A DNA stretch of 62,997 nucleotides, filler included, from Octopus bimaculoides (GCF_001194135.2; 6 parts of 6 records of this genome joined end to end with filler, not necessarily neighbours in it); one strand, 5' to 3'. Shown: positions 9,927 to 50,876, counted from the first letter of the whole stretch. The notes: generated by a model from the sequence alone, not told the origin. Made by a program: numbers and translations.

Positions 9927-10721
9927 GATAGAGTCTTACAGCTGTTTCAGGGAAGATCCAATGCGTCCCTTCATCGGAGACAGAAATAGTAGAGGAATCG
10001 ATTATTATATCTAAAAGCGGAGAGTTATAGTAGGAAGTGAGAGTGAGTGTGATGCGCTGAAAGAAGAAAGAAAAAACAGTACTTTGAGTGTAGGTTCATT
10101 CCAGTAGTAAGTATGCATGCAAATAATCCTTGTGCGTATTTTCCGGAGATAATTGTTGTAGCAAAGGTGGATGTATGTCATATTGAGTCCGGAGGATACT
10201 GCGTGTGGTTTGCTTAAAGGATATCCCAAATCAAGTGAGAGATGTGTGTAGGGTAAATAAGTCAAGTCTTAAGACAGGAAGGAAAGGGGAGAGAGAATTA
10301 ATTCAGGTGGAGAATGGTAGTCACAGGTTTTATGGTCAGTTAATCTGACTGGACAGAGAGAATAAGTATTGAGAGTAAAGGAGGAAGGGGGATAGAGGTA
10401 AATGTTTAGTAAGGAAGAAGGAATGCGAGGAGGTATTAAGGAGAGGTAGGCTATAAGTGGTGAGGGTGTGGGTGACATTCTAAAAACAGAATTAAAGGAA
10501 AAAAGGAGAGAGAGAAAGAATTAGTAGGAACATATTCTAAAAATAGAGCTAAGCCTAATTTACGGATGGTAGAAGGGGGATCTGATGCTACTATATTTGA
10601 TTGTGGTTATCAACAAGGAGCCTGCATGCGGTGGTGGTGTTATTAGCAATGAAGTGTAAAGGGAGTAAATTAGGAAAAGATATATTAAGTAGTGATAAGA
10701 TCAAAAAAGAAATAAATCTAT
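9927..10721 (-). mobile_element. PLE-derived 3' segment, left arm of an inverted pair
   Basis: Reverse complement of 11326-12105 with scattered substitutions and indels; ends in a hammerhead-like motif. Confidence 0.7.
9933..9981 (-). ncRNA. Minimal type-I hammerhead ribozyme motif (U4C core variant)
   Basis: GUCU-CCGAUGA-AGGGA(loop)UCCCU-GAA-AC(AGCU)GU-A^AGAC: stem I 4 bp, stem II 5 bp, palindromic stem III, GUA site. Confidence 0.65.
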
Positions 10722-11325
10722 NNNNNNNNNNNNNNNNNNNNNNNNNNNNNNNNNNNNNNNNNNNNNNNNNNNNNNNNNNNNNNNNNNNNNNNNNNNNNNN
10801 NNNNNNNNNNNNNNNNNNNNNNNNNNNNNNNNNNNNNNNNNNNNNNNNNNNNNNNNNNNNNNNNNNNNNNNNNNNNNNNNNNNNNNNNNNNNNNNNNNNN
10901 NNNNNNNNNNNNNNNNNNNNNNNNNNNNNNNNNNNNNNNNNNNNNNNNNNNNNNNNNNNNNNNNNNNNNNNNNNNNNNNNNNNNNNNNNNNNNNNNNNNN
11001 NNNNNNNNNNNNNNNNNNNNNNNNNNNNNNNNNNNNNNNNNNNNNNNNNNNNNNNNNNNNNNNNNNNNNNNNNNNNNNNNNNNNNNNNNNNNNNNNNNNN
11101 NNNNNNNNNNNNNNNNNNNNNNNNNNNNNNNNNNNNNNNNNNNNNNNNNNNNNNNNNNNNNNNNNNNNNNNNNNNNNNNNNNNNNNNNNNNNNNNNNNNN
11201 NNNNNNNNNNNNNNNNNNNNNNNNNNNNNNNNNNNNNNNNNNNNNNNNNNNNNNNNNNNNNNNNNNNNNNNNNNNNNNNNNNNNNNNNNNNNNNNNNNNN
11301 NNNNNNNNNNNNNNNNNNNNNNNNN

Positions 11326-12105
11326 ACTTAATATATCTTTTCCTAATTTACTCCCTTTACACTTCATTGCTAATAACACCACCACCGCATGCAGGCTCCT
11401 TGTTGATAACCATAATCAACTATAGTAGCATCAGATCCCCCTTCTACCATCCGTAAATTAGGCTTAGCTCTATTTTTAGAATATGTTCCTACTAATTCTT
11501 TCTCACTCTCCTTTTTTTCCTTTAATTCTGTTTTTAGAATGTCACCCACACCCTCACCACTTATAGCCTACCTCTCCTTAATACCTCCTCGCATTCCTTC
11601 TTCCTTACTAAACCTTTACCTCTATCCCCCCTTCCTCCTTTACTCCCAATACTTATTCTCTCTGTCCAGTCAGATTAACTGACCATAAAACCTGTGACTA
11701 CCATTCTCCACCTGAATTAATTCTCTCTCCCCTTTCCTTCCTGTCTTAAGGCTTGACCTATTTACCCTACACACATCTTGATTTGGGATATCCTTTAAGC
11801 AAACCACACGCAGTATCCTCCCGACTCAATATGACATACATCCACCTTTGCTATATCCGCCTTTGCTACAACAATTATCTCCGGAAAATACCCACAAGGA
11901 TTATTTGCATGGATACTTACTACTGGAATGAACCTACACTCAAAGTACTGTTTTTTCTTTCTTCTTTCAGCCCATCACACCCACTCTCACTTCCTACTAT
12001 AACTCTCCGCTTATAGATATAATAATCGATTCCTCTACTATTTCTGTCTCCGTTGAAGGGATGCATTGAATTTTCCCTGAAACAGCTGTAAGACTCTATC
12101 CATAA
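11326..12105 (+). mobile_element. PLE-derived 3' segment, right arm of the inverted pair
   Basis: Inverted homolog of 9927-10721. Confidence 0.7.
12046..12094 (+). ncRNA. Hammerhead motif copy (core CCGUUGA, two deviations)
   Basis: GUCU-CCGUUGA-AGGGA..UCCCU-GAAACAGCUGUA^AGAC. Confidence 0.55.
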
Positions 12106-13438
12106 AATATATTTCTAACTTTGCCATTGTTCTCTTTATCCTTTTCTTTATTTATGCATACACACGCTAATACACGACTTATAGTCCCTAATCCTGTTTA
12201 TACAACGAATGGGGCATAACTAGCCGGTATACAGCACTTTCTCGGTATTACCTGTATCTTTGGGTTTAGTTAAATCCAATCCCCTTCTTAACCTTACATA
12301 TATATATGGTTTTTGTATATAATATACATGTTAGCATATATTATAATGGATGAAAGGATGATTATTGAATGTTTACTATTTTGATATTTTAATATTTTTA
12401 ATAATTTTTCTATCTTTATAAAATAAGTATTTCATATAAATTCATTTGGTACTTATTGCTGGTTGATATATATATTTATTTATTTTAATTATTGTTCTAC
12501 TTACGACCTGACGATTAGCTATATTTTTGAATAGAATTTATTTTCGATAATTTCAATTGATTTTAATCGATTTAAATTTCTTTTCTATTTGAAAATTAGT
12601 TATGAAACACGTGTAGTCATTTTATTATCTTTTTCTCATGATATTTACTTTGTTTTATATTATACTCGTTTATTGTGCTTTTAATTATTAATTTTTCTAT
12701 ATGTGATAGTAGATTTTCATCGATGAGTTCTTGAAACTTGGTTATTTNNNNNNNNNNNNNNNNNNNNNNNNNNNNNNNNNNNNNNNNNNNNNNNNNNNNN
12801 NNNNNNNNNNNNNNNNNNNNNNNNNNNNNNNNNNNNNNNNNNNNNNNNNNNNNNNNNNNNNNNNNNNNNNNNNNNNNNNNNNNNNNNNNNNNNNNNNNNN
12901 NNNNNNNNNNNNNNNNNNNNNNNNNNNNNNNNNNNNNNNNNNNNNNNNNNNNNNNNNNNNNNNNNNNNNNNNNNNNNNNNNNNNNNNNNNNNNNNNNNNN
13001 NNNNNNNNNNNNNNNNNNNNNNNNNNNNNNNNNNNNNNNNNNNNNNNNNNNNNNNNNNNNNNNNNNNNNNNNNNNNNNNNNNNNNNNNNNNNNNNNNNNN
13101 NNNNNNNNNNNNNNNNNNNNNNNNNNNNNNNNNNNNNNNNNNNNNNNNNNNNNNNNNNNNNNNNNNNNNNNNNNNNNNNNNNNNNNNNNNNNNNNNNNNN
13201 NNNNNNNNNNNNNNNNNNNNNNNNNNATCCTACATATATTTTTATTTTTACTTTTATTCTCTAATTTCCATCCTTTCCAAAATAACTTCTCATATTGACC
13301 TCTACTACTTCCTTTAACTATCTTGCATCATGTCTTATGAAGGGATATCCCTAATATCACAGAAACAGCTGTTAGACTAATTTTCTCCTTATGTCTTGAA
13401 AATGTCACTCACCCTTGGCTTTGTTATCTCATTTTATT

Positions 13439-13478
<40 letters not shown>

Positions 13479-13517
13479 ACACATACAGACACACACACAA
13501 ACACACATACACACATG

Positions 13518-13551
<34 letters not shown>

Positions 13552-15157
13552 CACACATGCATACACCCACACATACATGTGCGTGAACAAGCAAGCACAA
13601 ACACCATACACACAGACAAGTTTATACCCGTAGTGTCGAAGACAGAGCCTATCAGCTGACTGCTCTTTTGATCTCTGAGATTAAATACACACATAAGTAT
13701 ACAAGGAGTGCATAAATGTGAACAAATCACAAATATTTACGAATCATATATTCGTAAATAATTTTTAATTGTTTACGTTATATCCTGCGTAATGTATTTT
13801 TAGATTCTTCTTCATATGTTTGAGTGTGTGTGTGTGTGCGTGCGCGCGCGCGTGTGTGAGAGTGTGCGTGCGTGTGTGTAATCGATTCTCTCGTTGAATT
13901 CAGTTATTGAGCATTCAGTTATTGCCGAACGACCTGCACAGCTTTCGTGTGTGCAACATCCTAACCACTAAGCCATGTATCTTACACACACACACACAGA
14001 CACACACAGACACACACACACACGCAGACACACACACACACACNNNNNNNNNNNNNNNNNNNNNNNNNNNNNNNNNNNNNNNNNNNNNNNNNNNNNNNNN
14101 NNNNNNNNNNNNNNNNNNNNNNNNNNNNNNNNNNNNNNNNNNNNNNNNNNNNNNNNNNNNNNNNNNNNNNNNNNNNNNNNNNNNNNNNNNNNNNNNNNNN
14201 NNNNNNNNNNNNNNNNNNNNNNNNNNNNNNNNNNNNNNNNNNNNNNNNNNNNNNNNNNNNNNNNNNNNNNNNNNNNNNNNNNNNNNNNNNNNNNNNNNNN
14301 NNNNNNNNNNNNNNNNNNNNNNNNNNNNNNNNNNNNNNNNNNNNNNNNNNNNNNNNNNNNNNNNNNNNNNNNNNNNNNNNNNNNNNNNNNNNNNNNNNNN
14401 NNNNNNNNNNNNNNNNNNNNNNNNNNNNNNNNNNNNNNNNNNNNNNNNNNNNNNNNNNNNNNNNNNNNNNNNNNNNNNNNNNNNNNNNNNNNNNNNNNNN
14501 NNNNNNNNNNNNNNNNNNNNNNNNNNNNNNNNNNNNNNNNNNNNNNNNNNNNNNNNNNNNNNNNNNNNNNNNNNNNNNNNNNNNNNNNNNNNNNNNNNNN
14601 NNNNNNNNNNNNNNNNNNNNNNNNNNNNNNNNNNNNNNNNNNNNNNNNNNNNNNNNNNNNNNNNNNNNNNNNNNNNNNNNNNNNNNNNNNNNNNNNNNNN
14701 NNNNNNNNNNNNNNNNNNNNNNNNNNNNNNNNNNNNNNNNNNNNNNNNNNNNNNNNNNNNNNNNNNNNNNNNNNNNNNNNNNNNNNNNNNNNNNNNNNNN
14801 NNNNNNNNNNNNNNNNNNNNNNNNNNNNNNNNNNNNNNNNNNNNNNNNNNNNNNNNNNNNNNNNNNNNNNNNNNNNNNNNNNNNNNNNNNNNNNNNNNNN
14901 NNNATATATATATACTCACAATTAAAAAATATTGTGCATCACAGAGAAGAAACTCCTGATAAGAGTGTCACTCTATTCGATATGTTTACAGAAACATTTT
15001 CTCTTGAATGAAAAGGGAAGAAAAAAAAAAGAAAAACAGGATAAAATTTCACTGGGCACTAAATGTAACAAGAGAACTTTTATGTATGTTAAGTGATAAT
15101 TGTTTCTTCACTTGTAAACGTCTAAAGTGCTATTTGTCAATATATAATCAAACAAAT

Positions 15158-15509
15158 ATGTACTGTTTCGCAATTAGTCACGTCACTCGAAAAACACCTC
15201 TTCTCAATATTTTCTCAATACTATTATTCCAAATGTGCTTGGGCAGTAATGTAAATTTTAGAGAATATTATGGCACTCGTGTTCCACCTCCTGTAACTGC
15301 CATTCCAGAAGCAGACAAATTAACTCAGATGTCAAACATCAGATCAGAAACTGAGTGTTTTTCTCTTTGTATGACATATTCTAAATGTGGTATGATCGTT
15401 TACAGCGTTTCCGATGAAGTATGCATCGTGCGTAAAATCAAGCAATTACCTGGTGCCACATCATTTATCGACATTCCGGCAAATAGTATTTACACAGTGC
15501 TTCAAGCTC
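15158..15509 (+). CDS. PAN/apple + C-type lectin gene, exon 1 (signal peptide and PAN-like domain)
   Basis: ATG 15158; hydrophobic LLNIFSILLFQMCLG; C-x3-C-x5-C-x11-C (CFSLCMTYSKCGMIVYSVSDEVC); strong GTGAGT donor at 15510, phase 1. Confidence 0.8.
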
Positions 15510-15655
15510 GTGAGTATTTTTCTTTTCCTAGTGCATGCGTTGTGTTTTATTATTATTATTATTATTATTTTATGTTTGACTTTTGCTTTGCATTTGTACA
15601 AGTTGGATCCAAGTCTCACCCAGAGACCTCAAGAGGCAACAAGTTAGGAGTTCAT

Positions 15656-15720
<65 letters not shown>

Positions 15721-15727
15721 TTTCTTT

Positions 15728-16560
15728 TTATCCATCCGGTTTCCGATGTCTGGTTAGGTGATCGCACTGAATCATTACATCCCAGAGGTTTTTAGAATCT
15801 TCATTCTCGGTGATTTCTTCTGGGGTTTGCTCATACCATGTCTTTGCTCTTTGTAGGCCGTGGTTTAAACAGAGCTCCCAATGGATCGTTCCCGACACAT
15901 TGTCATGTCGTCTTTTGTATTCACGTTGTGCCAATTTCGGGCATTCGCCAACGATGTGCCATATCATTTCTTCATTCTCACAGTACATTCTTCAGTTGCT
16001 GCTGTCGGTTGTGTAGTCGATTCAGCACTCCACATAGTTCTTAACGCTTTTTCTTGTGCAGCGCTTATAAGTGCTTCTGTCTCTGTCTTCAGGTCACTCC
16101 TTCTCATCCCTAGCCAACAGTCCTCTGTATTTGTCTCGGCATTCGTACCTCTTGCAAACTAACCCTACGTTTTCTTTTCCTTCCATGTTGTTTCTTTTCC
16201 TTCCATGTTGTTTCTTTTCCTTCCATGTTGTTTCTTTTCCTTCCATGTTGTTTCTTTTCCTGTTCTTTTCCACTTAAAGTTTTTCTTTCTTCATACAATT
16301 CTCAGTTTTAATGACGCCAGACTTCACATGTTTCGACAATAGTCCCACGGTATCTTTTACATATCACCCTAAACTGTTTTTCTCTGTTTCGATACAATCC
16401 TGGCAACTGATCAAACCTCTCCCACACTTTCTTCTGGACAAGTAGAGCATATCGGGGTCACTTTTAGGGTGGAAGGCTCCGTGCACTGTTAATATTTTCT
16501 TGTCTTCATATCCATGTTCATCAGTTCTTTCTTTTGTCAGTTTATGATTCCAGCTCCATG
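15728..16560 (-). mobile_element. R4/Dong-clade (RLE-type) non-LTR retrotransposon fragment
   Basis: HPKSDPDMLYLSRRKCGRGL, WKEKKQHG, C..E.IWHIVGECPKLAQREYKRRHDNV..IHW, LWDVMIQCDH..RKPD; these are post-RT, CCHC and RLE-start motifs; broken by stops and frameshifts. Confidence 0.85.
16171..16260. repeat. 20-bp tandem repeat x4 (TTCCATGTTGTTTCTTTTCC) inside the R4-like fragment
   Basis: Four identical units at 16181-16260 plus a partial one. Confidence 0.95.
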
Positions 16561-17200
16561 TACTCAATTGAACATATTACTATTCCTCTGTATCACCCAA
16601 GATCTAATGGACAAGCGGAAAGGTTCGTAGATACATTTAAAAGAGCATTAAAGAAATCAAGAAACGTGTTAGTCGATGACGCAGCCTTGACGCAATTCTT
16701 TAGGGTTTATAGGATAACACCAAACCCAAACGCTTTTCAGGCAAGTTGCCTGCGGAATTAATGTTTGTTCAGAAAATAGAGTCAGTTTTCCACAAGCTGC
16801 TACCAGTAAGAAAAACAAATAGGGAAATCACTAAAATACGACAAAGTCATTTAATATCAGTGCCTAAGTATTTTTCAAAGTATATAAGAATGGAAGACAA
16901 GGTTGAGAAGACGGAGAAGTAACAAAAGGAATAGGCAAAATGACATATATGATAAGAGGCGAAAAATGAGAATACAAAAGGCATTTAAACCAGCTAAGAA
17001 AATAGATATACGCAAAAAAGCGTGGAAGTGTGTGTTTGCGCGAAGGTTTATATTCCAGGTCTTGACATGAGAGCGTTGAAAATCTGTGTCGTTCGTTGGT
17101 CTCGGTGTAACTTCTAATAAATATATAGAAAGTGGTTCACCTTGGTCCCTTTGAATATGCATCAATTATTGCTACTTTTAATAAGTTTGAATTCACTCGG
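16540..17200 (+). mobile_element. Ty3/Gypsy (K02A2.6-like) integrase C-terminal fragment
   Basis: IEHITIPLYHPRSNGQAERFVDTFKRALKK..FFRVYRITPNPN; homologous to 41848-42186. Confidence 0.85.
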
Positions 17201-18170: not shown

Positions 18171-18561
18171 AGTATGAAAATAGGTGGGTTTAACACTAGC
18201 TCATTAGTTTACATGTATAACATTGATGACTGGATTATCGTCTGACCACCTTGTCTTGTTGAATTTTGATGAAAAAGAAATTGTCACAGCTAGTAAACTA
18301 TGTACATGGGAGTTGGAGAGATTGCTCTTGAAAAGAAGATTCTAGAATGAGATTTATTGTGTGTGCAAAACCAAAACTGGAAGAGAAGCGTGTGTGGGAA
18401 TTCTAATTGCCAGTGTGCAGTTACAAATAATTTTCAGTTGAGGTGAAATGGCTAAGAGAAAATAAATCAGTCAATAGCTAATAGTGACCTGAAATTAACA
18501 TAAATTATTACTTTTCCAAATGATCTTACACATGAGATATATTTTTCTTGTCTTCCTATAG

Positions 18562-18741
18562 CTGAATGTCCTACCTCAGCCGGCTACATTTATCGACCAG
18601 AATTTAGATTATGCTTTCAAATAGGTTCTAAGGAAATTTCATGGAATGACGCCGCAGACAATTGCAATAACGATCGGGGACGACTTATCCACCTGAAAAA
18701 TTTGGAAGTGAACAACTATATCAGAACACTAATAGCATCGA
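18562..18741 (+). CDS. PAN/apple + C-type lectin gene, exon 2 (CTLD N-half)
   Basis: Pyrimidine tract plus TAG acceptor at 18561; 180 nt, phase 1-1; ECPTSAGYIYRPEFRLCFQIGSKEISWNDAADNCNNDRGRLIHL; GTGAGT donor at 18742. Confidence 0.9.
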
Positions 18742-18810
18742 GTGAGTAATATACATTTTACACACAAACTCACACCCATAAACACAAACACACATATGCA
18801 CTTCTCCCCC

Positions 18811-19562: not shown

Positions 19563-19622
19563 AGTATTAAAAACGACAGCTGTGGTAGTTCGAATTAGAC
19601 ACATTACTGACAATGTGAATAT

Positions 19623-20114
19623 ATTACGAAGTAGAAGCGCTAAGCAGTAATGTGTATAAATGCAATGGTATTACCAGTTCAAATATATTTATGGAATGTT
19701 TGGACTCGTAAATAAGTCATTCACTGTGTTTTATCACAGAAAATTTCTCGCTGTAGACAATGATGTAAATACACCTAGATCAGTTTGCAGCGCCCTCATT
19801 CCAGACTTTGTGATGCCGCATTTCAGAATAGTTGTCTTCTCTTCGGTCACAGGTAATAACATTGCATTTATGCATATCACTTCTTAGCGCTCCTACTTCG
19901 TAATTTACTTACGGTAAGCAGCCGCATAGCATTATCAGCCATCATACAGTGACTGAAATAGCAGAGGAGAACCACTTTCTTTCATCGGTTCGCAGTGCCC
20001 TCAGTGGCCGAAGAGGAGACAACTACTCCGAAATGCTGCATCTGATAGCCAGGAAAGGGGGCGCTGCAAACTGATCTAGGTCATCAGCGAAAAATTTTCT
20101 CCATGACAAAACAC
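19623..20114. repeat. Interleaved double inverted repeat (A-B-A'-B') with a hammerhead-like remnant
   Basis: A 19623-19675 vs A' 19852-19904; B 19726-19850 vs B' 20004-20114; CCGAAGA-GGAG..CTCC-GAA-ATGCTGCATC at 20008-20042. Confidence 0.75.
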
Positions 20115-21496
20115 GTTTAACATAGTGAATTGCTTGCCACAAGCAATTTAAACTAGTAATAACACTGAATCTGAATATTTATTCTTAAACTTCGATTTTG
20201 CTTTTAATCGACACAACATCAATATTCTTAGTAGAATGGTAGTGTATATTAAATTTACTAACATACCTATGGCAGTCATTTTATCAAACTACAGTAATAT
20301 GAAAGATGAAGTCAATCCTGTTCAGTGTTAAATTCATATGTAAAAAGACGAAATGAAAAAAATATCTACTATATTGGTTTGCTCAACACCGTTCATTAAC
20401 AAATGATTAACACTACATTTCATTTTAGATATGAAGAATATGAAAATCTAGAACATGTTAATATATTCCTTTGTCGACGAGTTTGTTTATCTGTCATTAT
20501 CGAGAAAGAGGCTATATGTAGTTTGCTGGCGTAAACAACAAAAAGTCACACTAAAACAGTATATACAATATCAGTAAGTACGGTACTACATACTTCATTG
20601 ATGAACCGTAATTATTTCCAGTACAAACACAAGCTCTGAAATTGTGTATGTAGTGGAGTGTAGCTGATTAGATCAACTACACTCCATCTGTTGATTGAAT
20701 GATACTTCAATCAACAGATGTACCATTGTTGATTGAACAATGGTACATCTGTTCAATCAACTGCACTTGAATGGTACTTCATTTTATTTCCCCGAACGGA
20801 ATAAGAGGTAAAACTGACCTGGTTGTGATATAAATTCAGAATGTTAGGTGCCGGGGAAATTACCGCAAGACATATCCGACGCGCCGACCATTCTGTCCGT
20901 CACACAGCTTTGCTAAAAGCAAGGGCGTGTAATGAACTTAAGCCTAAACACAAACTTTCCTAATAAGAAGATATGTCATAGCTCTCAATATTTTATGAAA
21001 CTGTTGGGATGACTGAGACTTCACCTCGTCTATTGTGGCTTATGTATTGATTGAATAAACCGTAAGGGGCTAAGCTTAAAGTCATATTCGACCCAATAAA
21101 TAAAAGCGTTGAGTCTTTCCATCGCTAATTATTTGTTGTTGCTTATAACTCTTCCCATACAACCAAATGTGATGTATCTGGACACATCGTCAGTGGTCTT
21201 TCCTGTGATCATTAGATGTTTCTAGTCTTTCAACATCAAACACTCTCACCCAGCTGATTCAGCCAGCCAGTGTTGGCCAATCCCCAACTTGTGCCTAGTC
21301 AACACCATCCTTGCGAGCACTTCCTCTTCCAGGGCTCAAAAGTCTCGATCCAGAACCACCTAAAGCAACTTCTGCTGCCTTCAATCCTAACATAAATACT
21401 TATTTATTCTGTATTTGGAAATAGCGTGAACATTTCGACTTTCCTGGATTCAGATCTGGCTTTAAAAAATAAAAGCACCTCCTCCTCCTCCTCCTC

Positions 21497-25396: not shown

Positions 25397-25916
25397 AAAC
25401 AGGCCGTCTCCCTGACTCGTCTCATAGATAAGAAGATTGTTTATCTGGGTGTTAGAAAAAGACTAGATAACCTATGCCATGAGAGAGATTTTCGAGATGC
25501 TGTGACTGAGTCATATATATTAAGGGGAATTCTATTTAAACTGTGATAGGCGCACAAATTGAAATTTGCTGCTAATGAGCATGCATGTAATGGCGTGAAG
25601 CACTAAAATTATTCCGGATTTTAAAATATCCTCCGATTTTTCAATTTACCTAAAAGCCTCTGAGCATACAAGCAGATCATTTGTCGGTTTGAAGTATGCA
25701 GCTGATAAAAACAGCTACCATGATTGTCGCTTCATCTTCTAGAGACTGCAGTCAACTGTTTCTCGAAGTGGATGATATAGTTCAGAACATATTACCAGCA
25801 CGGTTAACATTCGATGTCAATAACAATATTAAAAAGATGATATGATAGTCACAGAGAGAGAGAATAATAACGAATTTCCGCATATGTTTGTCTCTATGAT
25901 CCACTTTTCCTTTCAG

Positions 25917-26155
25917 GTCTGTTGCGAAACAAATGGTTCCATTTTGGAGTCTTTAAAGATGATAGTAAGAACGTCTTTGCATGGCAGAATGGAGACGCAC
26001 TTGTATTTACTTTCTGGAGAAGCGGTTCCCCTGACAATTATGGAGGCAATCAGAAGTGTACAGCTTTGGATCCACGCTATGGTCACAAATGGAATGATAT
26101 TGATTGCGGTATAGTGAACCTCGGGATACATATGTGCGAAATTGTTGTCCTTTAA
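25917..26155 (+). CDS. PAN/apple + C-type lectin gene, exon 3 (CTLD C-half, stop)
   Basis: CCTTTCAG acceptor, phase 1; WFHFGV..FAWQNG..FTFWRSGSPDNYGGNQKCTAL..KWNDIDC..HMCE, then TAA. The three exons total 771 nt = 256 aa + stop with no frame break. Confidence 0.92.
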
Positions 26156-29158: not shown

Positions 29159-30610
29159 GCATACGTGTACTAATACTTGTTATTATTTCGAATTACAATA
29201 AAAACAATTTTACATTAATCTGATGGATTACTCAATACTTTTTGTAGAGTTCATATTACTCTTTAACAAGAATGATGTTGAGAGCTTCTTCAAAGTTTTA
29301 GCTTGCTAGGCCATCATTAAATTGTGGTACATTTGAGTTCATGTTTGAATCTTTAACTGGTTCTCTGTTGAATGATAGTGTTGGATAAGTTGTGATGAAT
29401 AGGTTTTCATTGATGAATAAAAGATTTTATTAATTAAATTTGGGGTTGTGTTATTATTCAGATTTCAGTCATAAATGTAGAACTTTGTAATCAGGCGTGT
29501 CTATTCGGGAGTGTAAGCTTCAGGTCGTGGAGTTGATTTCAGGGGTCTGCAAACAATACATAGGTAAAAACGCGGTTTGTTGGTCACCAAATGTATCACT
29601 AGTTTTATTGTTGTTGTTTTATTCGGATACTAATGAGAGATTTAACCTTTTGTTTTTAGTAATATGCAGGTTATAGCGATAGTTCAGCCAAGCGTTTAAG
29701 CTTTTGTAATTAGGCATGTTTATTTAGGTGTGTCAGCTTTTAGGTCATAGATTCTTTTTAAGGGTTCACAAATGAGTATGAACAGACGAAAAAGTTTGTT
29801 GGTCAACAGATTTCTTTGCTTGTTAGTGGTGTTATTTAGGATATTTCTTATTGTTGGTGTTACATGGGATATTTACTCTGTTTGTTTTGAGAAGAGTAAA
29901 TTTTCTAAATAGTAATGATCTAACATATAGAACAATTAGCCTTAACTAACCTTCCTACATTCATTTGTGAACATTAAAGCACCAAGTAACCAAATTTCTA
30001 TATTAAGAGCACTATGACATAAAGCTGACACACCTGAATCACCACACCTAACCACAAAATCTTTCATAGATGACTGTTAACCATTACCCAGTTGATAGGC
30101 TAGCAGGCCGAAAACTTTGGAGTAACTTTCGATACTATTTTTGTTAAAAAATTATATGATATATGTGTTTGTGTGTATGTGTGTGTGTGTGTGCTTCTGT
30201 GTGTGTACATGTGTACGCGCATATATGTATGTGTATATATATATATATATGTGTATATATATATATATATNNNNNNNNNNNNNNNNNNNNNNNNNNNNNN
30301 NNNNNNNNNNNNNNNNNNNNNNNNNNNNNNNNNNNNNNNNNNNNNNNNNNNNNNNNNNNNNNNNNNNNNNNNNNNNNNNNNNNNNNNNNNNNNNNNNNNN
30401 NNNNNNNNNNNNNNNNNNNNNNNNNNNNNNNNNNNNNNNNNNNNNNNNNNNNNNNNNNNNNNNNNNNNNNNNNNNNNNNNNNNNNNNNNNNNNNNNNNNN
30501 NNNNNNNNNNNNNNNNNNNNNNNNNNNNNNNNNNNNNNNNNNNNNNNNNNNNNNNNNNNNNNNNNNNNNNNNNNNNNNNNNNNNNNNNNNNNNNNNNNNN
30601 NNNNNNNNNN

Positions 30611-30643
<33 letters not shown>

Positions 30644-30831
30644 AAGGGGTTTGTATGATTGTGTATAGAAGAATATATTGCTCAAAGGGATTCTAGCTCT
30701 GTCTGTTTTTCATATTTTATCTATAATCTTCTAATATTAATATAAGATATAAAATAATATAGTAAAAATGAAATGAAATATTAATTGTCTATTCTTATTG
30801 AACAAATGAAATATAAAATGTCCATTCTTAC

Positions 30832-30874
30832 TGAACTAGTATACTTTCTTGCATTTATGCAACCTTCAGGTTCA
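30832..30874 (-). ncRNA. Minimal type-I hammerhead motif (A9G)
   Basis: UGAAC-CUGAAGG-UUGCAU(AA)AUGCAA-GAA-AGUAUACU-A^GUUCA: perfect 5-bp stem I, 6-bp stem II, palindromic stem III. Confidence 0.75.
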
Positions 30875-31191
30875 TTGGTGGTGACAGCTGTGATCATTGG
30901 TTTCAAGTGTGGTTGACTGGTAAATTTTGACCTTTACATACATTCCTGTATATAAGTAGTAACTGCTTGCATATTTTTTTAGAAATGATGCCATACGATT
31001 TTTCAGTGTTTGTTTTTAGAAATAATAACAACAGTACTTTTTAGAGATTTTTATTTTTTAAATATGGGGATAAGACTTGTAAACCTTAAATAAGATTATT
31101 TTTTTATCACTGTTTATTAAGCTTGGGTTTGAATTTATTTATAAAGTCCTTTTCTCTTAGTTTTCTATCGTTTTCATTCGGATTGTATAGT

Positions 31192-31491
31192 TTATGAAAT
31201 AGAAATATTATAAATATCTATGATCCAGCATCGCTGGTTACTCAGCGGTATTTGGCGGACTTCTGGATTTTTAATTTGTTGTCGGTGCACTCGTGAGCGT
31301 TCTGATAGTGCATTGCCTGTCTGGCCAACATACAGCTCTTCACAATTCGGGCATTTGATGCAGTAGATTAAATTTCTGCTTTTACAGTTCATAATTTTGT
31401 TTGTGAATATTTCCCCCGTTTTTGTGTCCATATATGGGCCACTATGAATGAACTGGCATGTACCGTATCGGCTATTATTGCATTTAGACAC
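31192..31491 (-). pseudogene. Penelope GIY-YIG endonuclease remnant
   Basis: KCNNSRYGTC..MNCKSRNLIYCIKCPNCEELYVGQTGNALSERSRVHRQQI. Confidence 0.85.
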
Positions 31492-31760
31492 AGTGAATGG
31501 TTGGTTTTGTTGCTAAGGTCAAACCTTGCCTTTGTTAATAACTGTTTCAAGCTTTTAGGCTGTCTTTTATTGAGAGTTATAGTTTGGTCTGTAATGATAT
31601 CTCTTAATTCCTTACTCGAGCAATGATTGGTAGGTTTGCTTTAACGATTTTGAAGATGCTCTGGTAGTATGGATTGTGCGTCACTATAAATGGTATGATT
31701 TGTTCTTGTTTTTCTCTTCTTTGCATTGTTCTCAGTTGTGTGGGTATTTTCATAGCCTGC

Positions 31761-31803
31761 TAAACCCGAAGATTGCATAAATGCAAGAAAGTATACTAGT
31801 TCA
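31761..31803 (+). ncRNA. Minimal type-I hammerhead motif (U4C)
   Basis: UAAAC-CCGAAGA-UUGCAU(AA)AUGCAA-GAA-AGUAUACU-A^GUUCA. Confidence 0.75.
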
Positions 31804-31854
31804 ATAAGAATGGACATTTAATATTTCATTTGTTCAATAAGAATAGTCAATTAG

Positions 31855-32075
31855 GCGTCGAGCTGGCAGAAACGTCAGCACGCCGGGCGAAATGCTTACC
31901 AGTATTTCGTCTGCCACTACGTTCTGAGTTCAAATTCCGCCGAGGTCGACTTTGCCTTCCATCCTTTCGGGGTCGATTAAATAAGTACCAGTAACACACT
32001 GGGGTCGATATAATCGACTTAATCCGTTTGTCTGTCCTTGTTTGTCCCCTCTGTGTGCAATAAAGAAATAAGAAG
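31855..32075 (+). mobile_element. SINE family A, full length, with probable TSD
   Basis: GGCGTCGAGCTGGCAGAAACGTCAGCACG..GAGTTCAAATTCCGCCGAGGTCGAC; flanks AAGAATAGTCAATTA / AAGAAGAGACAATTA; interrupts the inverted arm. Confidence 0.85.
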
Positions 32076-32221
32076 AGACAATTAATATTTCAATTCATTT
32101 CTTTTTACTATATTATTTTATATCTTATACTAATATTAGAAGATTATAAATAAAATGGGAAAAACAAAGTTGGAATTCCTTTGAGTAATATATGTATATA
32201 TAAGTATATGTATATATATGC

Positions 32222-39973: not shown

Positions 39974-40999
39974 GAAAATATTTCGAAAGGAAAATAGAAA
40001 AAAAAAAAAACTTTGATATTTAACAAAAAAAAAAAAGATAACGATTTAAATGTATTGCTAGTAACGTGTGAAAAATAAGTTAATATGTTTTTGGGAAGTT
40101 GAACTATAAATTAAGTTTTGTAAATAAATGATAAACTAACTAAACAACCATTATCGCACTTTATTGAAATGAGAGACGGAAACAGGGTTGCTGTTGTTGT
40201 TGTAGTTGTTATTTTTGTTATATAAATTGGTGGTGATGATATTGTTGTTGTTTCTCACAAACGATATTTCTGTTGTACAAATGTATACAATCATGTTCGT
40301 GTATGCAAAGACATACGCTACAAAAATTGCCTCGAGGGAAAAAAAATTCTCCTTGTATGGCATTTTACACCCATTGGGCCATAAATGACATCATGGAACC
40401 GCAGAACGCTTGTGTTTCTGCGTCTTTGCACGTTGTTAGCTAAGGAAACCGAGCCGTCGTTCACAGTCACTAACGACTTGTTCTTATAGTTTATCAGCAA
40501 ATGGTAGATTTGCTGATATTGGCAAAGTGCTGTCAAGCTGGAATTAATTAATCAGAGGCGCACTAAGCAGTGATAAACGAAATATAGGTGCGTACGACCA
40601 TATTTAATACGTTCGTGCAGACTCGGATATGGAAAGACACCTGCGATCCGATGACGTCATTCATGACCCAATGGTGTGTTTCTCACACATATTGTCTGTA
40701 TGGAGAATTTTTCTGTCGAGACAATGTCTGCAGTGTAGTCTTTTTCAAGTCCGAGTGTGCATGAATATATTAAATATGGCCGTATACACCTATATTACAT
40801 TTAATGCTGCTTCGTGTGCCTCTAATTAATTGATACTTTTGTTGTAGTTTTTGTTGTTGCTGTTGTTGTTCTTTGTATGTTTGCTTCTTTTTTTTCTTTT
40901 GTAAGAAGATTTCAGCTCTGCATACCAAGACGATGAAGCAGGCATCAATTTTAAAGATATATACTGCATCTCCTCCTGGTATTGATTAAACAACACCAA

Positions 41000-44590: not shown

Positions 44591-44699
44591 GACAAAAGGA
44601 ATATTTATCACAAGTAATTTCTGTGATTCTTCTGTTAATTCGATTAGTAAATATGAGTATTATAACGAAACTAACTAGAGAAATGTTTGCCAAATTAAT

Positions 44700-45300: not shown

Positions 45301-45416
45301 TAAAATCATTAATAAGGACTCATGCCAAGTTTTTAAGAACGTAATTAAAAACGTAGTTAAGAACGTTAGTTGAACGAGCTCCATGTCTTCTAGCAAAGTA
45401 AATTTTGCCAGGGCAG

Positions 45417-45801
45417 TGTGGTATGACGTCAGTGTCTGGGGAGGCTGACCGGAAGGGCGAGTCGACCGGAAGGGGGAAAAGGGCAGAGGGAGCCTCGATC
45501 GGCATTCGTGCCCTTTTCAAACGGGGCTGCGGTGAGGACAAGACGTGTTGTTCTCGGTTTGTGGGAAGTTGATCGGGCACTATACGATCGCTGGTTGGTT
45601 GCGCATTGCATGTAGTTACATCAAGAGACGAGCAGAGGGGGAGAGTTGGAGTGACAAGGTAGGAGAGGCGACGGTGGCGATGATGCGGGAAATCCTGGAG
45701 AGAACGAGAGCGGAAGACCCGGTCAGAGGAAACTGGTATGTGCCCAAGACGGAGTGCGGGACGGTTTGGTGTGATGCTAGCAGTATAGCGATAGGGGTTG
45801 T
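45417..45801 (+). mobile_element. LTR retrotransposon fragment (BEL/Pao-like RT thumb and RNase H start)
   Basis: TG-starting GC-rich segment joined to LFSVCGKLIGHY..GWLRIACSYIKRR..W..DPVRG.W..VWCDASS; superfamily assignment is uncertain. Confidence 0.55.
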
Positions 45802-46153
45802 NNNNNNNNNNNNNNNNNNNNNNNNNNNNNNNNNNNNNNNNNNNNTTAATTAATTAANNNNNNNNNNNNNNNNNNNNNNNNNNNNNNNNNNNNNNNNNNN
45901 NTATATATATATATATATATGCAAGGATGTCTGCATGAATTAAGACACACGTCTGATTTACAACAATGTCTCATGTCTATGAACGAGGCGGAGAATGAAA
46001 AAAAATTTCGTCGGAAAAGGAGAACAAAGGGGTGAAAAGTGGAAGAAAGACATTGTGTACGAAGAGAAGAAGAAATAGGAAGAAAATAATAAGACAAGAC
46101 AGGAAAGGAAGCGATAAGTGACTGATGGATAAATGGAAGGGAAAGAGGAAAGA

Positions 46154-46201
<48 letters not shown>

Positions 46202-46428
46202 TGAGAGAAGGAAGATTGGACGGGAAAAGGAGTAATGAAATTGAGAAGACAAGTAGATGTAAAGATTATTTGCCAACATAATGTGACAGTCCTGTTTAGG
46301 ACGCTTGTTACTGTTATTTAGCGTACTATTTATAGATAGATGGATAGAGAGAAAGAGAGAGAGATAGAGAAAGAGAGAGAGATAGAGAAAGAGAGAGAAN
46401 NNNNNNNNNNNNNNNNNNNGAGAGAGAA

Positions 46429-46469
<41 letters not shown>

Positions 46470-46479
46470 AAGAGAGAGG

Positions 46480-46523
<44 letters not shown>

Positions 46524-46577
46524 TAGAGAAAGAGAGAGAGATAGAGAAAGAGAGAGAAAGGCAGGTTTATAAGTATG

Positions 46578-46622
<45 letters not shown>

Positions 46623-46637
46623 TGATAGATAGATAGG

Positions 46638-46719
<82 letters not shown>

Positions 46720-47070
46720 AAGAAAAAGGTAAGTGTAAAAGGGGTTATATATTCTAGGTTGAACATTCAATTAAGCGTATTCTTTCAGTGAAAACCATTG
46801 AAGCTTGTTTGAAAGCGACAACGTAATGGCTACCAAGGCGCTTTTGATGGTATGGTGGTTTGACGTTGAAAGCAGTTTTGCACGCTAATAGCCAATATTT
46901 TCTCGTGGTAAATGAAATGCAGACGATAAATTGTAAGCGCCATCTCTCGGAAGGTTTCTGAAGTACTTTCTTTTTATTCCTCATGAAATGACGTCTCTTT
47001 CTACACACGATATATTCTGAAATATTGCATAAAGCTTAATACCGTGATAACGTCCTTTATACACACACAA

Positions 47071-47106
<36 letters not shown>

Positions 47107-47696
47107 ATATATATATGTGAATATATATACATGTATGTATATGTATGTATGCATATATTTATGCAAATATATGTATATATGTAGGTTTACAACTCTCTCT
47201 TTATATATATATNNNNNNNNNNNNNNNNNNNNNNNNNNNNNNNNNNNNNNNNNNNNNNNNNNNNNNNNNNNNNNNNNNNNNNNNNNNNNNNNNNNNNNNN
47301 NNNNNNNNNNNNNNNNNNNNNNNNNNNNNNNNNNNNNNNNNNNNNNNNNNNNNNNNNNNNNNNNNNNNNNNNNNNNNNNNNNNNNNNNNNNNNNNNNNNN
47401 NNNNNNNNNNNNNNNNNNNNNNNNNNNNNNNNNNNNNNNNNNNNNNNNNNNNNNNNNNNNNNNNNNNNNNNNNNNNNNNNNNNNNNNNNNNNNNNNNNNN
47501 NNNNNNNNNNNNNNNNNNNNNNNNNNNNNNNNNNNNNNNNNNNNNNNNNNNNNNNNNNNNNNNNNNNNNNNNNNNNNNNNNNNNNNNNNNNNNNNNNNNN
47601 NNNNNNNNNNNNNNNNNNNNNNNNNNNNNNNNNNNNNNNNNNNNNNNNNNNATATATACATTTTTTTTCTCCGTGTTTTTCTCCTTGTCTCCGTAT

Positions 47697-47733
47697 TCTT
47701 TCTGTTGAAGAGCGTAGCTCGAAACGTCAAAGA
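47697..47733 (+). ncRNA. Minimal type-I hammerhead motif (A6U, extra A after A9)
   Basis: UCUUU-CUGUUGA-A-GAGC(GUA)GCUC-GAA-ACGU-C^AAAGA: perfect 5-bp stem I, loopless palindromic stem III, GUC site. Confidence 0.72.
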
Positions 47734-48001
47734 CTTTCCGTATTCCCGAGCGTCATACTAATATATCCTTTTGTTATTTACACCACCTGTCCTCGTCTGT
47801 TGTTATTATTTGTATATTCTCCCATATATATATACATGTATATATATAGACATATATAGACATATATACACATATATTTATAAATATATATACGTTTGTG
47901 TGTGTATGTATACATATAAACACATATATGTATATGTAGGTTCACATACATATATATGTAAACATGTTTAGATATAAGCATATCAAATATGCATGTACGT
48001 G

Positions 48002-48047
<46 letters not shown>

Positions 48048-48099
48048 TATATATGTATGTGTGTATATATATATAAATGCTTACTGCATACACAAGCAC

Positions 48100-48188
<89 letters not shown>

Positions 48189-48763
48189 AGTATTTTCTAT
48201 CATCGACCATAATACATTATACAGATTATGAAATACATATTGTTATGGCTGATATCCTGCTTATTTCGCTATTCAGTGATATTTCAGCATAAAAATTCTA
48301 CTATCGTCAGTTCAAAAAGCATCAATGTAATTATCAAAAGGCTTTGAATGTTGTCAAGAGTTCTCTCAGCCGTTAAATAGATCATAAATATTATTATCGC
48401 AATCTATGGCCTTGTAAATTCATTTAGCTTCTATCGACTTTATTTCCAATATACTTGTTTTACGCATTTTATTAGCCACAACAAATGTTTCATTGAGCCA
48501 GGCTCGGAGCAGGCTTTAACCAAAGTTCAACGAAAGCAATATGCATTTACAGCTCTCAATCGTACATCAAGGTTGTTTCATATTACGGCAAGGTTATCGT
48601 TCGAAGCAGGAAGCGAAAGGCCTAACATATCAGTAGAGAATTTACAACCGGAAACATGCTTATGTGATTTTTATCTCGAATATTTCACGAACGAAACGCG
48701 AAAACAAAGTGAGAGATCATGAAAACATTTTAAAGTCCTATAATAATAATCATAGTAATAATG

Positions 48764-48842
<79 letters not shown>

Positions 48843-48954
48843 NNNNNNNNNNNNNNNNNNNNNNNNNNNNNNNNNNNNNNNNNNNNNNNNNNNNNNNNNN
48901 NNNNNNNNNNNNNNNNNAAAAAAAATTTTTTAAATAAATAAAAATAAAAATTTA

Positions 48955-49200
48955 AAAAAATAAAATAAAAATATTCAGACAAATACATAACAAAAACACC
49001 AGGACTTACAAATATATATAACATACAGAAAATTGCACTACTGGGTACTGCACACATTCTACGCAAAACGTTTTCAATACAGTAAACATAAGAGCACCAC
49101 AGCAAACCACAGCACATACCCAAGGCGCACAGAGCTGCGCTCGGTAGTGAAGTGAAAGCACGTTATAAAAATAAAACTACTGAACAATAATAATAATAAT
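48955..49200 (+). mobile_element. R4/Dong-type LINE 3' end with (AAT) tail
   Basis: IQKIALLGTAHILRK..stop 49083-49085, ~100-nt 3'UTR, (AAT)5. Confidence 0.8.
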
Positions 49201-49674
49201 ATGCGATCATGAGATAGAAAATAGGGATTTTATGATTCAGTACGACCATAAAATAGAGATCAAGAAGCCGGATATAGTCTTAATCGAGAAAGTAAACTAT
49301 GCTGGATCATAGATATAGCATGGCCAGCTGACAACAAGGTATGTGATAAGGAAGAAAGAAAAGTAGATAGGTATGACGGGTTAGCATGGGAGGCAAAGCA
49401 GTTGTGGTAGATGAAAAATGTGGTAGTAGTACCAATAATTGTCGGAGCTCTGGGAACAGTGAGTAAAAATCTTGAGAAGTACGTGGAATAAATAGGGGCT
49501 GCAATAAGGGTGGAGCACTTACAGAAAACAGCACTGCTTGGAACCGCTCGAATACTCCGGAAGGTCCTCGAAAAATAAGAGGTGTTACCTTAGTTCACTG
49601 GTAGTGAACAGCTGACACCATAGTACATCTCCAGCGTTGGAAGCTGTACGAAGGCAATGATGACGATGATGATG

Positions 49675-49711
<37 letters not shown>
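49201..49711 (+). mobile_element. Second R4/Dong-type LINE 3' end (RLE domain) with (GAT)/(AAT) tail
   Basis: DFMIQYDHKIEIKKPDIVL..IIDIAWPAD..KEERKVDRY..VPIIVGALG..LQKTALLGTARILRKVL, stop at 49576-49578. Confidence 0.88.
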
Positions 49712-49712
<1 letters not shown>

Positions 49713-49714
49713 TA

Positions 49715-49930
49715 TCGACCTTAGTGCTTGGGTGGTTCATATTTTAGCGACCTCGAAAGGATGAAAGTCATATTCGACTATAGCTGAAATTGAACTCAAA
49801 ACGAAACAGTGGACGAAATGTAGCTATGCATTTTTGGCCAATGCATTAACTATTCTGCCATCTCGGGCCAAGCAAAGACTTGTGAGTGGATTTGGTAAAA
49901 AGAAACTGAAAGAATCCTGTCGTATATGTT
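49715..49930. mobile_element. Adjacent SINE A (-) and SINE B (+) fragments
   Basis: CGACCTCGAAAGGATGAAAG and GACTTGTGAGTGGATTTGG..AACTGAAAGAA motifs. Confidence 0.55.
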
Positions 49931-50641
49931 GTNNNNNNNNNNNNNNNNNNNNNNNNNNNNNNNNNNNNNNNNNNNNNNNNNNNNNNNNNNNNNNNNNNNN
50001 NNNNNNNNNNNNNNNNNNNNNNNNNNNNNNNNNNNNNNNNNNNNNNNNNNNNNNNNNNNNNNNNNNNNNNNNNNNNNNNNNNNNNNNNNNNNNNNNNNNN
50101 NNNNNNNNNNNNNNNNNNNNNNNNNNNNNNNNNNNNNNNNNNNNNNNNNNNNNNNNNNNNNNNNNNNNNNNNNNNNNNNNNNNNNNNNNNNNNNNNNNNN
50201 NNNNNNNNNNNNNNNNNNNNNNNNNNNNNNNNNNNNNNNNNNNNNNNNNNNNNNNNNNNNNNNNNNNNNNNNNNNNNNNNNNNNNNNNNNNNNNNNNNNN
50301 NNNNNNNNNNNNNNNNNNNNNNNNNNNNNNNNNNNNNNNNNNNNNNNNNNNNNNNNNNNNNNNNNNNNNNNNNNNNNNNNNNNNNNNNNNNNNNNNNNNN
50401 NNNNNNNNNNNNNNNNNNNNNNNNNNNNNNNNNNNNNNNNNNNNNNNNNNNNNNNNNNNNNNNNNNNNNNNNNNNNNNNNNNNNNNNNNNNNNNNNNNNN
50501 NNNNNNNNNNNNNNNNNNNNNNNNNNNNNNNNNNNNNNNNNNNNNNNNNNNNNNNNNNNNNNNNNNNNNNNNNNNATATATATATGGCACAAAAACGCAA
50601 TAGAGGACAATAAACCATTCGGACAGATAGATGATAAAATT

Positions 50642-50876
50642 GCAGCGTGGAGGGTGTTTATAAGCCATTTAAAAACCCACAAAAACCGTTAGATTCACTT
50701 CAACAGTTAAATTTAAATTGCGAAAATATTTTCGTCGCTTTGAAACCGCGACCTGTTCACTGACAAAATTCAGTGCTGCATCGAAAAATATTCTGACAAA
50801 TTAAATTTAACTGTTGAAGTGAATCTAACGGCTTTTGTGTGTTTTTTAATGGTTTATAAACACCTTCCACGCTTCA
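50642..50876. mobile_element. Short fold-back element with a central hammerhead motif
   Basis: Arms 50642-50733 and 50782-50876 are reverse complements with a few mismatches. Confidence 0.8.
50718..50766 (-). ncRNA. Minimal type-I hammerhead motif with a G3-C8 core
   Basis: UUGUCA-GUGAACA-G-GUCGC(9)GCGAC-GAA-AAUAUU-U^UCGCAA. Confidence 0.68.

What the first reader, a model, noticed from the sequence alone, without database searches (positions are those of the whole stretch)
9927..50876. Recurrent architecture: inverted arms tied to minimal hammerhead ribozymes (PLE-derived fold-back elements)
Seen: four unrelated inverted-repeat structures each have a minimal type-I hammerhead at or near an arm boundary: 9927-12105, 19623-20114, 30673-32190 and 50642-50876. 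Each has a different stem II and a different palindromic or near-palindromic stem III (ACAGCUGU, AUGCUGCAU, AGUAUACU, AAUAUU). Established: Penelope-like elements carry minimal hammerheads with palindromic stem III that cleave as dimers, and they often have inverted pseudo-LTRs. Inference: this genome hosts several families of MITE-looking elements that are really ribozyme-delimited non-autonomous retroelements, down to ~235 bp. Repeat libraries would likely mislabel them as DNA MITEs.
Basis: partly seen in the sequence, partly recalled or inferred. Interest (0 to 1): 0.72.

Follow-up and report, generated by a model that had tools for sequence, protein, structure and literature searches.

The report
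Head-to-head Penelope retroelement insertion scars
The four mirror-image repeats are real, but three are stumps left by protein-coding Penelope-like jumping genes and one is a small ribozyme-bearing repeat with the same landing marks; their ends do not lie at the predicted ribozyme cut site, and one family's copies often start behind an extra G, which likely means the uncut, capped RNA was copied.

Summary
All four inverted repeats and their type I hammerhead motifs are real, and each belongs to a multi-copy family. They are not ribozyme-delimited MITE mimics. Elements 1, 3 and 4 are 5'-truncated ends of autonomous Penelope-like elements (PLEs): Hydra-type, Neptune-type and Neptune/Nematis-type parents with RT and GIY-YIG genes occur in this genome. 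The arms are two copies joined head to head, usually one long and one short 3' end (50 of 67 family-4 pairs; none long-long), with a different junction almost every time (75 of 80). That layout is published. Ends avoid the cut site. Less ordinary: (i) family-4 5' ends pile up 60 nt before the cut site behind a non-parental G (37 of 53, against 13 of 57 at other ends), likely a copied cap; (ii) its core has a fixed G3-C8 swap; (iii) element 2 is an ORF-less 340-nt circularly permuted retrozyme carrying the same PLE scar. Cleavage and RNA circles are not shown. The scan has reported this layout, the extra G, the swapped core and a 340-nt retrozyme before, on other DNA.

The parts
9922..10721 (-). 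Element 1 left arm: 3' UTR/pLTR end of a Hydra-type PLE; ends 15 nt past the cut site in (TAA)n; inner end hidden by the N gap
   Evidence: parent ORF
9933..9981 (-). Family-1 minimal hammerhead: stem I GUCU/AGAC, core CCGAUGA (U4C), stem III ACAGCUGU, predicted cut after 9937; intact family fold
   Evidence: core CCGAUGA in 26 of 30 copies
11326..12296 (+). Element 1 right arm, including tail 12106-12296 that ends at the family's long 3' end (+206)
12046..12094 (+). Family-1 hammerhead copy with A6U change, predicted inactive
   Evidence: sequence
19620..19852 (-). Element 2 left arm: retrozyme-like unit from -40 to the long end (+194); decayed hammerhead about 19806-19852, predicted cut after 19812
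19849..20170 (+). Element 2 right arm: unit from -204 to the short end (+154), just over one monomer with internal deletions; decayed hammerhead about 20002-20048, predicted cut after 20042
   Evidence: 340-nt period
30642..31767 (-). Element 3 long copy: 5'-truncated Neptune-type PLE, ending in a tail (30642-30672) at the long end (+192), in (TA)n
31195..31512 (-). GIY-YIG endonuclease remnant of element 3
   Evidence: Pfam PF01541 E 6.9e-6, above the curated cut-off
30832..30874 (-). Family-3 minimal hammerhead (family core CUGAAGA; here A9G), stem III AGUAUACU, predicted cut after 30837
   Evidence: CUGAAGA in 24 of 30 copies
31763..32190 (+). Element 3 short inverted arm: starts 35 nt before the cut site (stem I cut to 3 bp, core U4C), ends at the short end (about +160); interrupted by a SINE-like repeat
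31854..32078 (+). Later SINE-like insertion in the right arm of element 3, with an imperfect duplication of the arm sequence at its ends
   Evidence: sequence; other window copies; SINE label recalled
50638..50782 (-). Element 4 left arm: starts within 2 nt of the family's 5' pile-up, ends at the short end (+88)
50718..50768 (-). Family-4 hammerhead: core GUGAACA (G3-C8 swap), bulged G before stem II, stem III AAUAUU, U17, predicted cut after 50724; 3' strand of stem I mutated in this copy
   Evidence: family copy folds stems I and II, z -2.5
50785..50937 (+). Element 4 right arm: starts at -8 (no ribozyme), includes the parent's ORF start region near 50849 and the 60-nt tail 50877-50937 to the long end, followed by (TA)n

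Best explanation
Each structure is likely a single insertion event in which a Penelope-type RT/endonuclease made two 5'-truncated cDNAs at one AT-rich target and joined them head to head, the hammerhead riding along inside the copied pLTR rather than setting the ends. Shown: arms point 3'-outward, 3' ends fall at two fixed sites per family, one arm usually takes the long and the other the short end, junctions vary, and RT plus GIY-YIG parents exist for families 1, 3 and 4. Inferred: the two 3' ends are the two internal RT start sites described for the Anolis element. Inferred for family 4: the very short copies run from those start sites, which lie in the ORF's first codons, to the capped 5' end of the uncut mRNA, the extra G being the copied cap. 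Inferred for family 2: an ORF-less 340-nt circular RNA was copied by a PLE enzyme in rolling-circle fashion, giving arms of any length up to 2.2 units with no 5' pile-up. Untested: whether any of the four ribozymes cuts.
For: Orientation: 38 of 120 loci have an inverted partner upstream and 0 of 120 downstream (L091 and L101 are one insertion); 10 of 10 close family-1 pairs are head to head. Ends: 198 of 235 N-free family-4 3' ends fall in two bins; 50 of 67 N-free pairs are long+short, 1 short+short, 0 long+long, 16 have an end elsewhere; 75 of 80 junctions differ; the two arms of one insertion share 75 of 369 variant positions against 3218 of 32093 between insertions. Parents: family 1 has RWK, DKT, CxCX5C, CxxC and CxH; family 3 has DKG, C-X4-CxxC and GIY-YIG; in family 4, 10 of 30 endonuclease loci carry the hammerhead unit (or its upstream edge) downstream, and L366 is a partial tandem with inverted arm, pLTR, RT, EN and pLTR. 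Extra G: 37 of 53 arms ending at -60 against 13 of 57 ending elsewhere, Fisher p 1e-6; 31 of 44 against 9 of 48 when the flank is not the partner arm; 11 of 17 outside the pattern-selected set. Family 2: period 340, majority unit folds with z -7; 24 of 75 arms exceed one unit; 14 of 26 junction records are long+short (12 distinct), 1 short+short, 0 long+long. Literature: layout in PMC8557442 and PMC3846280; internal initiation and an uncleaved template in vitro in PMC11167929.
Against: No transcription start was observed: three RNA runs show both strands, no start or end pile-up and no splice joint. The sequence before the pile-up also reads like a splice acceptor (branch-like CTAAC, pyrimidines, CAG). 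With the 22 arms at -48 to -45 kept in the control (left out because a polymorphic base stops the alignment there), G is 27 of 79 rather than 13 of 57. Samples are top hits, and 90 of 180 family-4 loci were selected for reaching -60. 13 of 247 arms start at +1 to +7, which could come from cut RNA. No PLE partner was identified for family 2, and one 35-nt tail-to-tail fragment occurs there. Most family-1 and family-3 loci show no partner within 1.5 kb (26 of 30 each; many N gaps). Pfam gave only weak RT scores and nothing for the family-1 and family-4 endonucleases, so those calls rest on motifs read by eye.
Confidence: 0.85

Rival explanations
1. One reading: ribozyme-delimited, non-autonomous fold-back retroelements that spread as hairpin units.
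For: Family 4 has many copies of 220-250 bp that match the whole fold-back (40 of 40 scored); family 2 has no ORF; one arm often starts near the ribozyme's front edge.
Against: Junctions differ in 75 of 80 pairs, the long end sits on either arm, ends avoid the cut site, and autonomous parents exist for three families.
Confidence: 0.05
2. The family-4 5' pile-up marks a splice acceptor or an RT stall rather than a capped start, and the G comes from a very short first exon, from microhomology or from terminal-transferase bias.
For: Parent sequence upstream reads CTAAC...TTTCTCAG; the D. virilis element has an intron ending at helix I (PMC4209133); 11 of the 29 G cases can be templated by the partner arm or a duplicated piece; AG precedes 13 of 55.
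Against: No shared exon longer than one base upstream; G stays enriched with non-partner flanks (31 of 44) and is not enriched at other ends (9 of 48); no splice joint in RNA (weak test).
Confidence: 0.2
3. Element 2 is the solo pLTR or tandem remnant of an unfound autonomous PLE rather than a circular-RNA retrozyme.
For: Same scar as the three PLE families; no long tandem array seen (longest 2.2 units); no abundant RNA signal (weak test on an old copy).
Against: The sequence downstream of the tail re-enters the unit at the same junction in many independent loci; no shared flank beyond the unit was seen in 60 loci; strongly paired unit and canonical 6-bp/4-bp hammerhead.
Confidence: 0.15
4. 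DNA-transposon MITEs that carry hammerhead-like text by chance.
For: Short inverted repeats in (TA)n targets.
Against: Unequal ends, variable interiors, RT/GIY-YIG parents, motif count far above shuffles.
Confidence: 0.01

Closest known systems
EN+ PLE insertion unit with adjacent inverted 5'-truncated copy and optional tail (Craig 2021, PMC8557442, passages and section 11; Arkhipova 2013, PMC3846280, passages; Schostak 2008, PMC2377424, passages)
   Same: Head-to-head arms, tail on one end, partial tandem, (TA)n targets, pLTR and tail holding the ORF's first codons (L366).
   Different: Tails here are about 32, 40, 60 and 140 nt against the published 30-40; near-strict long+short pairing is counted here.
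Minimal type I hammerheads of metazoan PLEs (Cervera and de la Pena 2014, PMC4209133; parts 1-2 of 4 read, 2 of 3 supplement files searched)
   Same: Palindromic stem III, short stem I, dual motifs on opposite strands 100-700 bp apart; bulged base before stem II (family 4).
   Different: Family 1 is fixed for U4C; family 4 for G3-C8 with U17. That paper reports U3-A8 as the natural covariant.
Anolis PAc internal initiation (Frangieh 2024, PMC11167929; parts 1-2 of 4 read)
   Same: Two fixed 3' ends downstream of the hammerhead, within the start of the ORF; no ends at the cut site; uncut RNA as template.
   Different: That work is in vitro on a Poseidon element and, in the parts read, reports no cap-derived G; here the evidence is genomic and from another clade.
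Metazoan non-LTR retrozymes (Cervera and de la Pena 2020, PMC7229834, passages; Li 2026, bioRxiv 10.64898/2026.07.22.740005, part 1 of 5 and passages)
   Same: Family 2: 340-nt ORF-less, highly paired, permuted unit with a canonical-layout type I hammerhead.
   Different: Dispersed and old (76-90% to the majority unit), at most 2.2 units seen, with PLE-type inverted partner and tail; 'inverted' does not occur in the first paper's main text and 'tail' not in the second's. Circles and cleavage not shown.
Hydra clade of PLEs (PMC8557442 section 11)
   Same: Family-1 parent has RWK, DKT, CxCX5C, CxxC and CxH, and (TA)n targets.
   Different: Asn-rich linker before the endonuclease; the first 2 of 4 'Octopus' rows shown from that paper's supplement are Naiads, the other 2 were not viewed.

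Membership tests
EN+ Penelope-like element (families 1, 3, 4) | Parent ORF with PLE-type RT and C-terminal GIY-YIG | tested here: met
   Family 3: PF01541 above cut-off, RT motifs. Family 4: RVT_1 E 0.002, EN motifs by eye. Family 1: motifs by eye only, no Pfam hit.
EN+ Penelope-like element (families 1, 3, 4) | 5' truncation with fixed 3' ends and optional tail | tested here: met
EN+ Penelope-like element (families 1, 3, 4) | Adjacent inverted copy at the 5' side; partial tandem | tested here: met
   partial tandem shown for family 4 only (L366)
EN+ Penelope-like element (families 1, 3, 4) | Phylogenetic placement of the RT | not tested
   No tree built; clade names rest on motifs quoted from PMC8557442
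Hydra clade (family 1) | RWK, DKT, CxCX5C linker, CxxC and CxH around the conserved E and N | tested here: met
   L414, L413, L416; L034
Neptune clade (family 3) | DKG and a CX2-5CxxC linker before GIY-YIG | tested here: met
   L418-L421; Neptune versus Nematis judged on linker length only
Neptune or Nematis clade (family 4) | CX2-5CxxC linker, C-terminal EN; which of the two clades | tested here: inconclusive
   CX3CxxC linker present; the two clades not separated
Type I hammerhead ribozyme | Three stems around the conserved core, 3-8 pair, NUH site | tested here: met
   Family majority states: CCGAUGA, CYGAAGA, CUGAAGA, GUGAACA; C8 in 86 of 89 readable family-4 copies, G3 in all 29 where the motif was located among the 30 fold-back hits
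Type I hammerhead ribozyme | Self-cleavage, as monomer or dimer | not testable with these tools
   No read ends at the predicted sites; these lays cannot show absence
Metazoan non-LTR retrozyme (family 2) | 170-400-nt ORF-less, highly paired monomer with canonical type I hammerhead | tested here: met
   340 nt, z -7, 66% paired; 6-bp stem I and 4-bp stem II
Metazoan non-LTR retrozyme (family 2) | Tandem copies | tested here: inconclusive
   24 of 75 arms exceed one unit, longest 762 nt; no long array among top hits
Metazoan non-LTR retrozyme (family 2) | Abundant circular RNA | tested here: inconclusive
   Low two-strand coverage on an old copy; library not suited
Metazoan non-LTR retrozyme (families 1, 3, 4) | No coding parent; unit closes on itself | tested here: not met
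   Upstream sequence leads to RT/EN genes
MITE (class II) | Equal terminal inverted repeats and a fixed internal sequence | tested here: not met
   Long+short ends, variable junctions
MITE (class II) | Fixed-length target-site duplication | tested here: inconclusive
   Candidates in 30 loci were nearly all (TA)n or (TG)n runs
MITE (class II) | Matching transposase | not tested
   No search made

The most novel reading that the evidence does not exclude
One genome records two template modes of the Penelope enzyme in vivo: family 4 shows copying of the uncut, capped mRNA leader right to its cap (extra G) through a natural G3-C8 hammerhead, and family 2 shows a protein-less circular retrozyme RNA copied by rolling circle and inserted with the full PLE scar (two start sites, one per arm, head to head). 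That would be direct genomic evidence that PLE machinery mobilises animal retrozymes and that PLE inversions come from two independently primed cDNAs.
Probability: 0.5. Interest if true: 0.65.

Novelty: new member of a known kind. Interest (0 to 1): 0.42.

Why it matters
The junction statistics bear on open questions in PLE biology: whether the hammerhead cuts the template before copying (here the copies run through the site), how the inverted arm and one-sided tail arise (near-strict long+short pairing points to two priming events), and which enzyme moves animal retrozymes (so far argued from co-occurrence and sequence likeness). The G3-C8 family is missed by standard descriptors and gives a natural test of the 3-8 core pair.

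Tried and rejected
Strict CUGANGA scan and Rfam: no hammerhead in the four elements; both miss the variant cores. The repeat finder was swamped by microsatellites and N runs. The first family-4 search used the whole fold-back and is biased to fold-backs, so single-arm, tail and pattern queries were added. A spliced first exon for family 4 was looked for and not found. A circular-unit reading of family 4 was dropped when its upstream sequence led to an endonuclease gene. The G test used the wrong bin by one base and was redone. Monomer folds of three of four motifs gave no hammerhead and z near 0, as expected for weak stem III; alignment folding of family 2 gave 1 of 18 pairs with a two-sided change, so within-family covariation is weak evidence. 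RNA: no RNA holder listed; lays of three raw RNA runs of the same species label (about 6% of each run) showed no start or end pile-ups, uninformative for old multi-copy repeats. Target-site duplications could not be called in (TA)n. Other window inverted repeats (29698-30063, 40543-40834, 56657-57789, 53654-56342) gave no convincing core. Literature searches for a natural G3-C8 core, a cap-derived G in PLEs, PLE-derived MITE mimics and octopus PLE hammerheads found no such report in the listings; Lunse 2017 and Arkhipova 2017 are not held and one supplement file of PMC4209133 could not be searched, so either variant may be in print there. PMC3884650 appeared in a listing with one 'G3-C8' occurrence that I did not get to read.


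Full report
Setting. The window is six joined stretches. Elements 1-3 lie on one stretch of contig C1 and element 4 on C27 of a 2.34-Gb assembly. The genome looks octopus-like (my inference; earlier scan notes say the same).

Observation. Self-BLAST and mapping confirm inverted arms at all four places. A strict core scan and Rfam see no hammerhead there. A relaxed descriptor, written after I had seen the motifs, hits 7 sites, 6 in these elements, against 0.15 in 40 shuffles. Copies from the genome give clean family folds: family 1 core CCGAUGA in 26 of 30; family 2 CCGAAGA or CUGAAGA in 20 of 30 with a 6-bp stem I and a long distal stem; family 3 CUGAAGA in 24 of 30; family 4 GUGAACA plus a bulged G. 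Of seven motif copies in the window only the left one of element 1 keeps its family's full fold. Copy numbers are lower bounds: first-look candidates 1084, 968, 274 and 1650; exact motif matches 71, 16 and 367 for families 1, 3 and 4.

Parents. Element 3 itself holds a GIY-YIG remnant (PF01541, E 6.9e-6), and longer copies carry an RT with DKG and a C-X4-CxxC linker: Neptune type. Family-1 copies lead upstream to an ORF with RWK, DKT, CxCX5C, CxxC and CxH, the motifs that PMC8557442 (section 11) gives for the Hydra clade; Pfam does not recognise it. Family 4 continues upstream through about 1 kb of microsatellite-rich sequence into an endonuclease and RT gene; 10 of 30 endonuclease loci have the hammerhead unit or its upstream edge downstream, and many others have N gaps. 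L366 is a partial tandem: inverted arm with long end, truncated copy, pLTR, ORF with RT and EN, pLTR with short end. The ORF's first ATG lies at +58, so the arm and tail hold its first codons, as described for Adineta Pen2a (PMC3846280, passages).

Ends. Each family has two preferred 3' ends past the predicted cut site: +65 to +75 and +206; +154 and +180 to +195; +160 and +192; +89 and +149. Inverted partners lie at the 5' side in 38 of 120 loci and at the 3' side in none; 10 of 10 close family-1 pairs are head to head. In family 4, 50 of 67 N-free pairs are long+short, 1 short+short, none long+long, 16 have an end elsewhere; 13 pairs touching N were set aside; 75 of 80 junctions differ. The arms of one insertion share variants twice as often as arms of different insertions (20% against 10%). 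So the hairpins were likely assembled at each landing. 5' ends are scattered in families 1, 2 and 3. One of 247 family-4 arms starts at the cut site and 13 start within +1 to +7.

The extra G. Family-4 5' ends pile up at an A 60 nt before the cut site. In the tail-anchored set, which is not selected on the 5' end, 9 of 30 stop within 8 nt of it, 4 run beyond and 17 are shorter, some at N gaps. Of 90 pattern-selected copies, 35 run on into the parent; of the other 55, 29 have G where the parent has C. Across all sets G precedes 37 of 53 arms ending there against 13 of 57 ending elsewhere (p 1e-6), or 27 of 79 if the 22 arms stopped at a polymorphic base are kept; with non-partner flanks it is 31 of 44 against 9 of 48. 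A non-templated G at the 5' end of a retro-copy is the known mark of a copied cap (my knowledge, from LINE-1 products). The likely reading is that RT starts in the first codons, as shown in vitro for Anolis PAc (PMC11167929), passes the uncut hammerhead and runs off the cap. The rival is a splice acceptor at the same place; no shared exon was found, and RNA lays were uninformative.

Element 2. Here the sequence past the tail re-enters the sequence upstream of the hammerhead at the same junction in many loci. The unit is 340 nt and its majority sequence folds as a circle with z -7. That explains the nested inverted repeats in the window. 24 of 75 arms exceed one unit, up to 762 nt, and 5' ends show no pile-up. 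It fits a non-LTR retrozyme (PMC7229834). It also carries the PLE scar: 14 of 26 junction records are long+short (12 distinct), 1 short+short, none long+long, 11 with an end elsewhere, and one tail-to-tail fragment. The family is old, no long array was seen, and no circle was detected (weak test).

The swapped core. Family 4 has G3 and C8 in place of C3 and G8: C8 in 86 of 89 readable copies, G3 in all 29 located among the 30 fold-back hits. PMC4209133 and PMC3088659 (passages) report U3-A8 as the natural covariant, and PMC11167929 shows partial rescue by the engineered double swap. My searches listed no natural case, but Lunse 2017 could not be read. With U17 and a two-pair stem III it is predicted to be slow; activity is untested.

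Comparison and verdict. The head-to-head layout with a one-sided tail is in PMC8557442, PMC3846280, PMC2377424 and the curation guide PMC8969392 (passages); hammerheads on opposite strands 100-700 bp apart are in PMC4209133; the review PMC6765202 (passages) covers dimers. Earlier notes of this scan report the layout, the extra G, the swapped core and a 340-nt retrozyme on other DNA; they are unchecked and are not counted as support. The finding is a set of new members of known kinds. Its value lies in the junction statistics, which make the template and priming questions testable. Interest 0.42.

Noticed in passing
L156, L157, L168, L173: A second repeat family shares about 150-250 nt of family 4's microsatellite-rich 3' UTR but has different sequence on both sides: a possible module swap between elements.
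   Followed up: no
L413:1045-1914 (-), L414:2913-3665 (+): The family-1 parent has a long Asn-rich linker before the endonuclease, like the N-rich inserts of Adineta PLEs.
   Followed up: no
window 56657-57789: Nested inverted repeats flank (TTAGGG)n-like repeats and an N gap; no hammerhead core found.
   Followed up: partly
window 40543-40834 and 29698-30063: Two further decayed inverted repeats (79-81%) without a recognisable core.
   Followed up: partly
window 18504-18749 and 25871-26155 (+): Open frames that look like C-type lectin exons (label recalled, not tested); elements 2 and 3 may be intronic.
   Followed up: no
window 15728-16576 (-): Fragments of a LINE-type retroelement ORF (label recalled).
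   Followed up: no
window 62588-62659 (-): tRNA gene, anticodon TTC read from the Rfam alignment.
   Followed up: no
family 2, e.g. L119, L120: Some copies have one more base in stem III in the alignment, making a perfect palindrome; not confirmed against the other alignment.
   Followed up: no
window 53654-56342: Several SINE-like copies in inverted arrangement.
   Followed up: no
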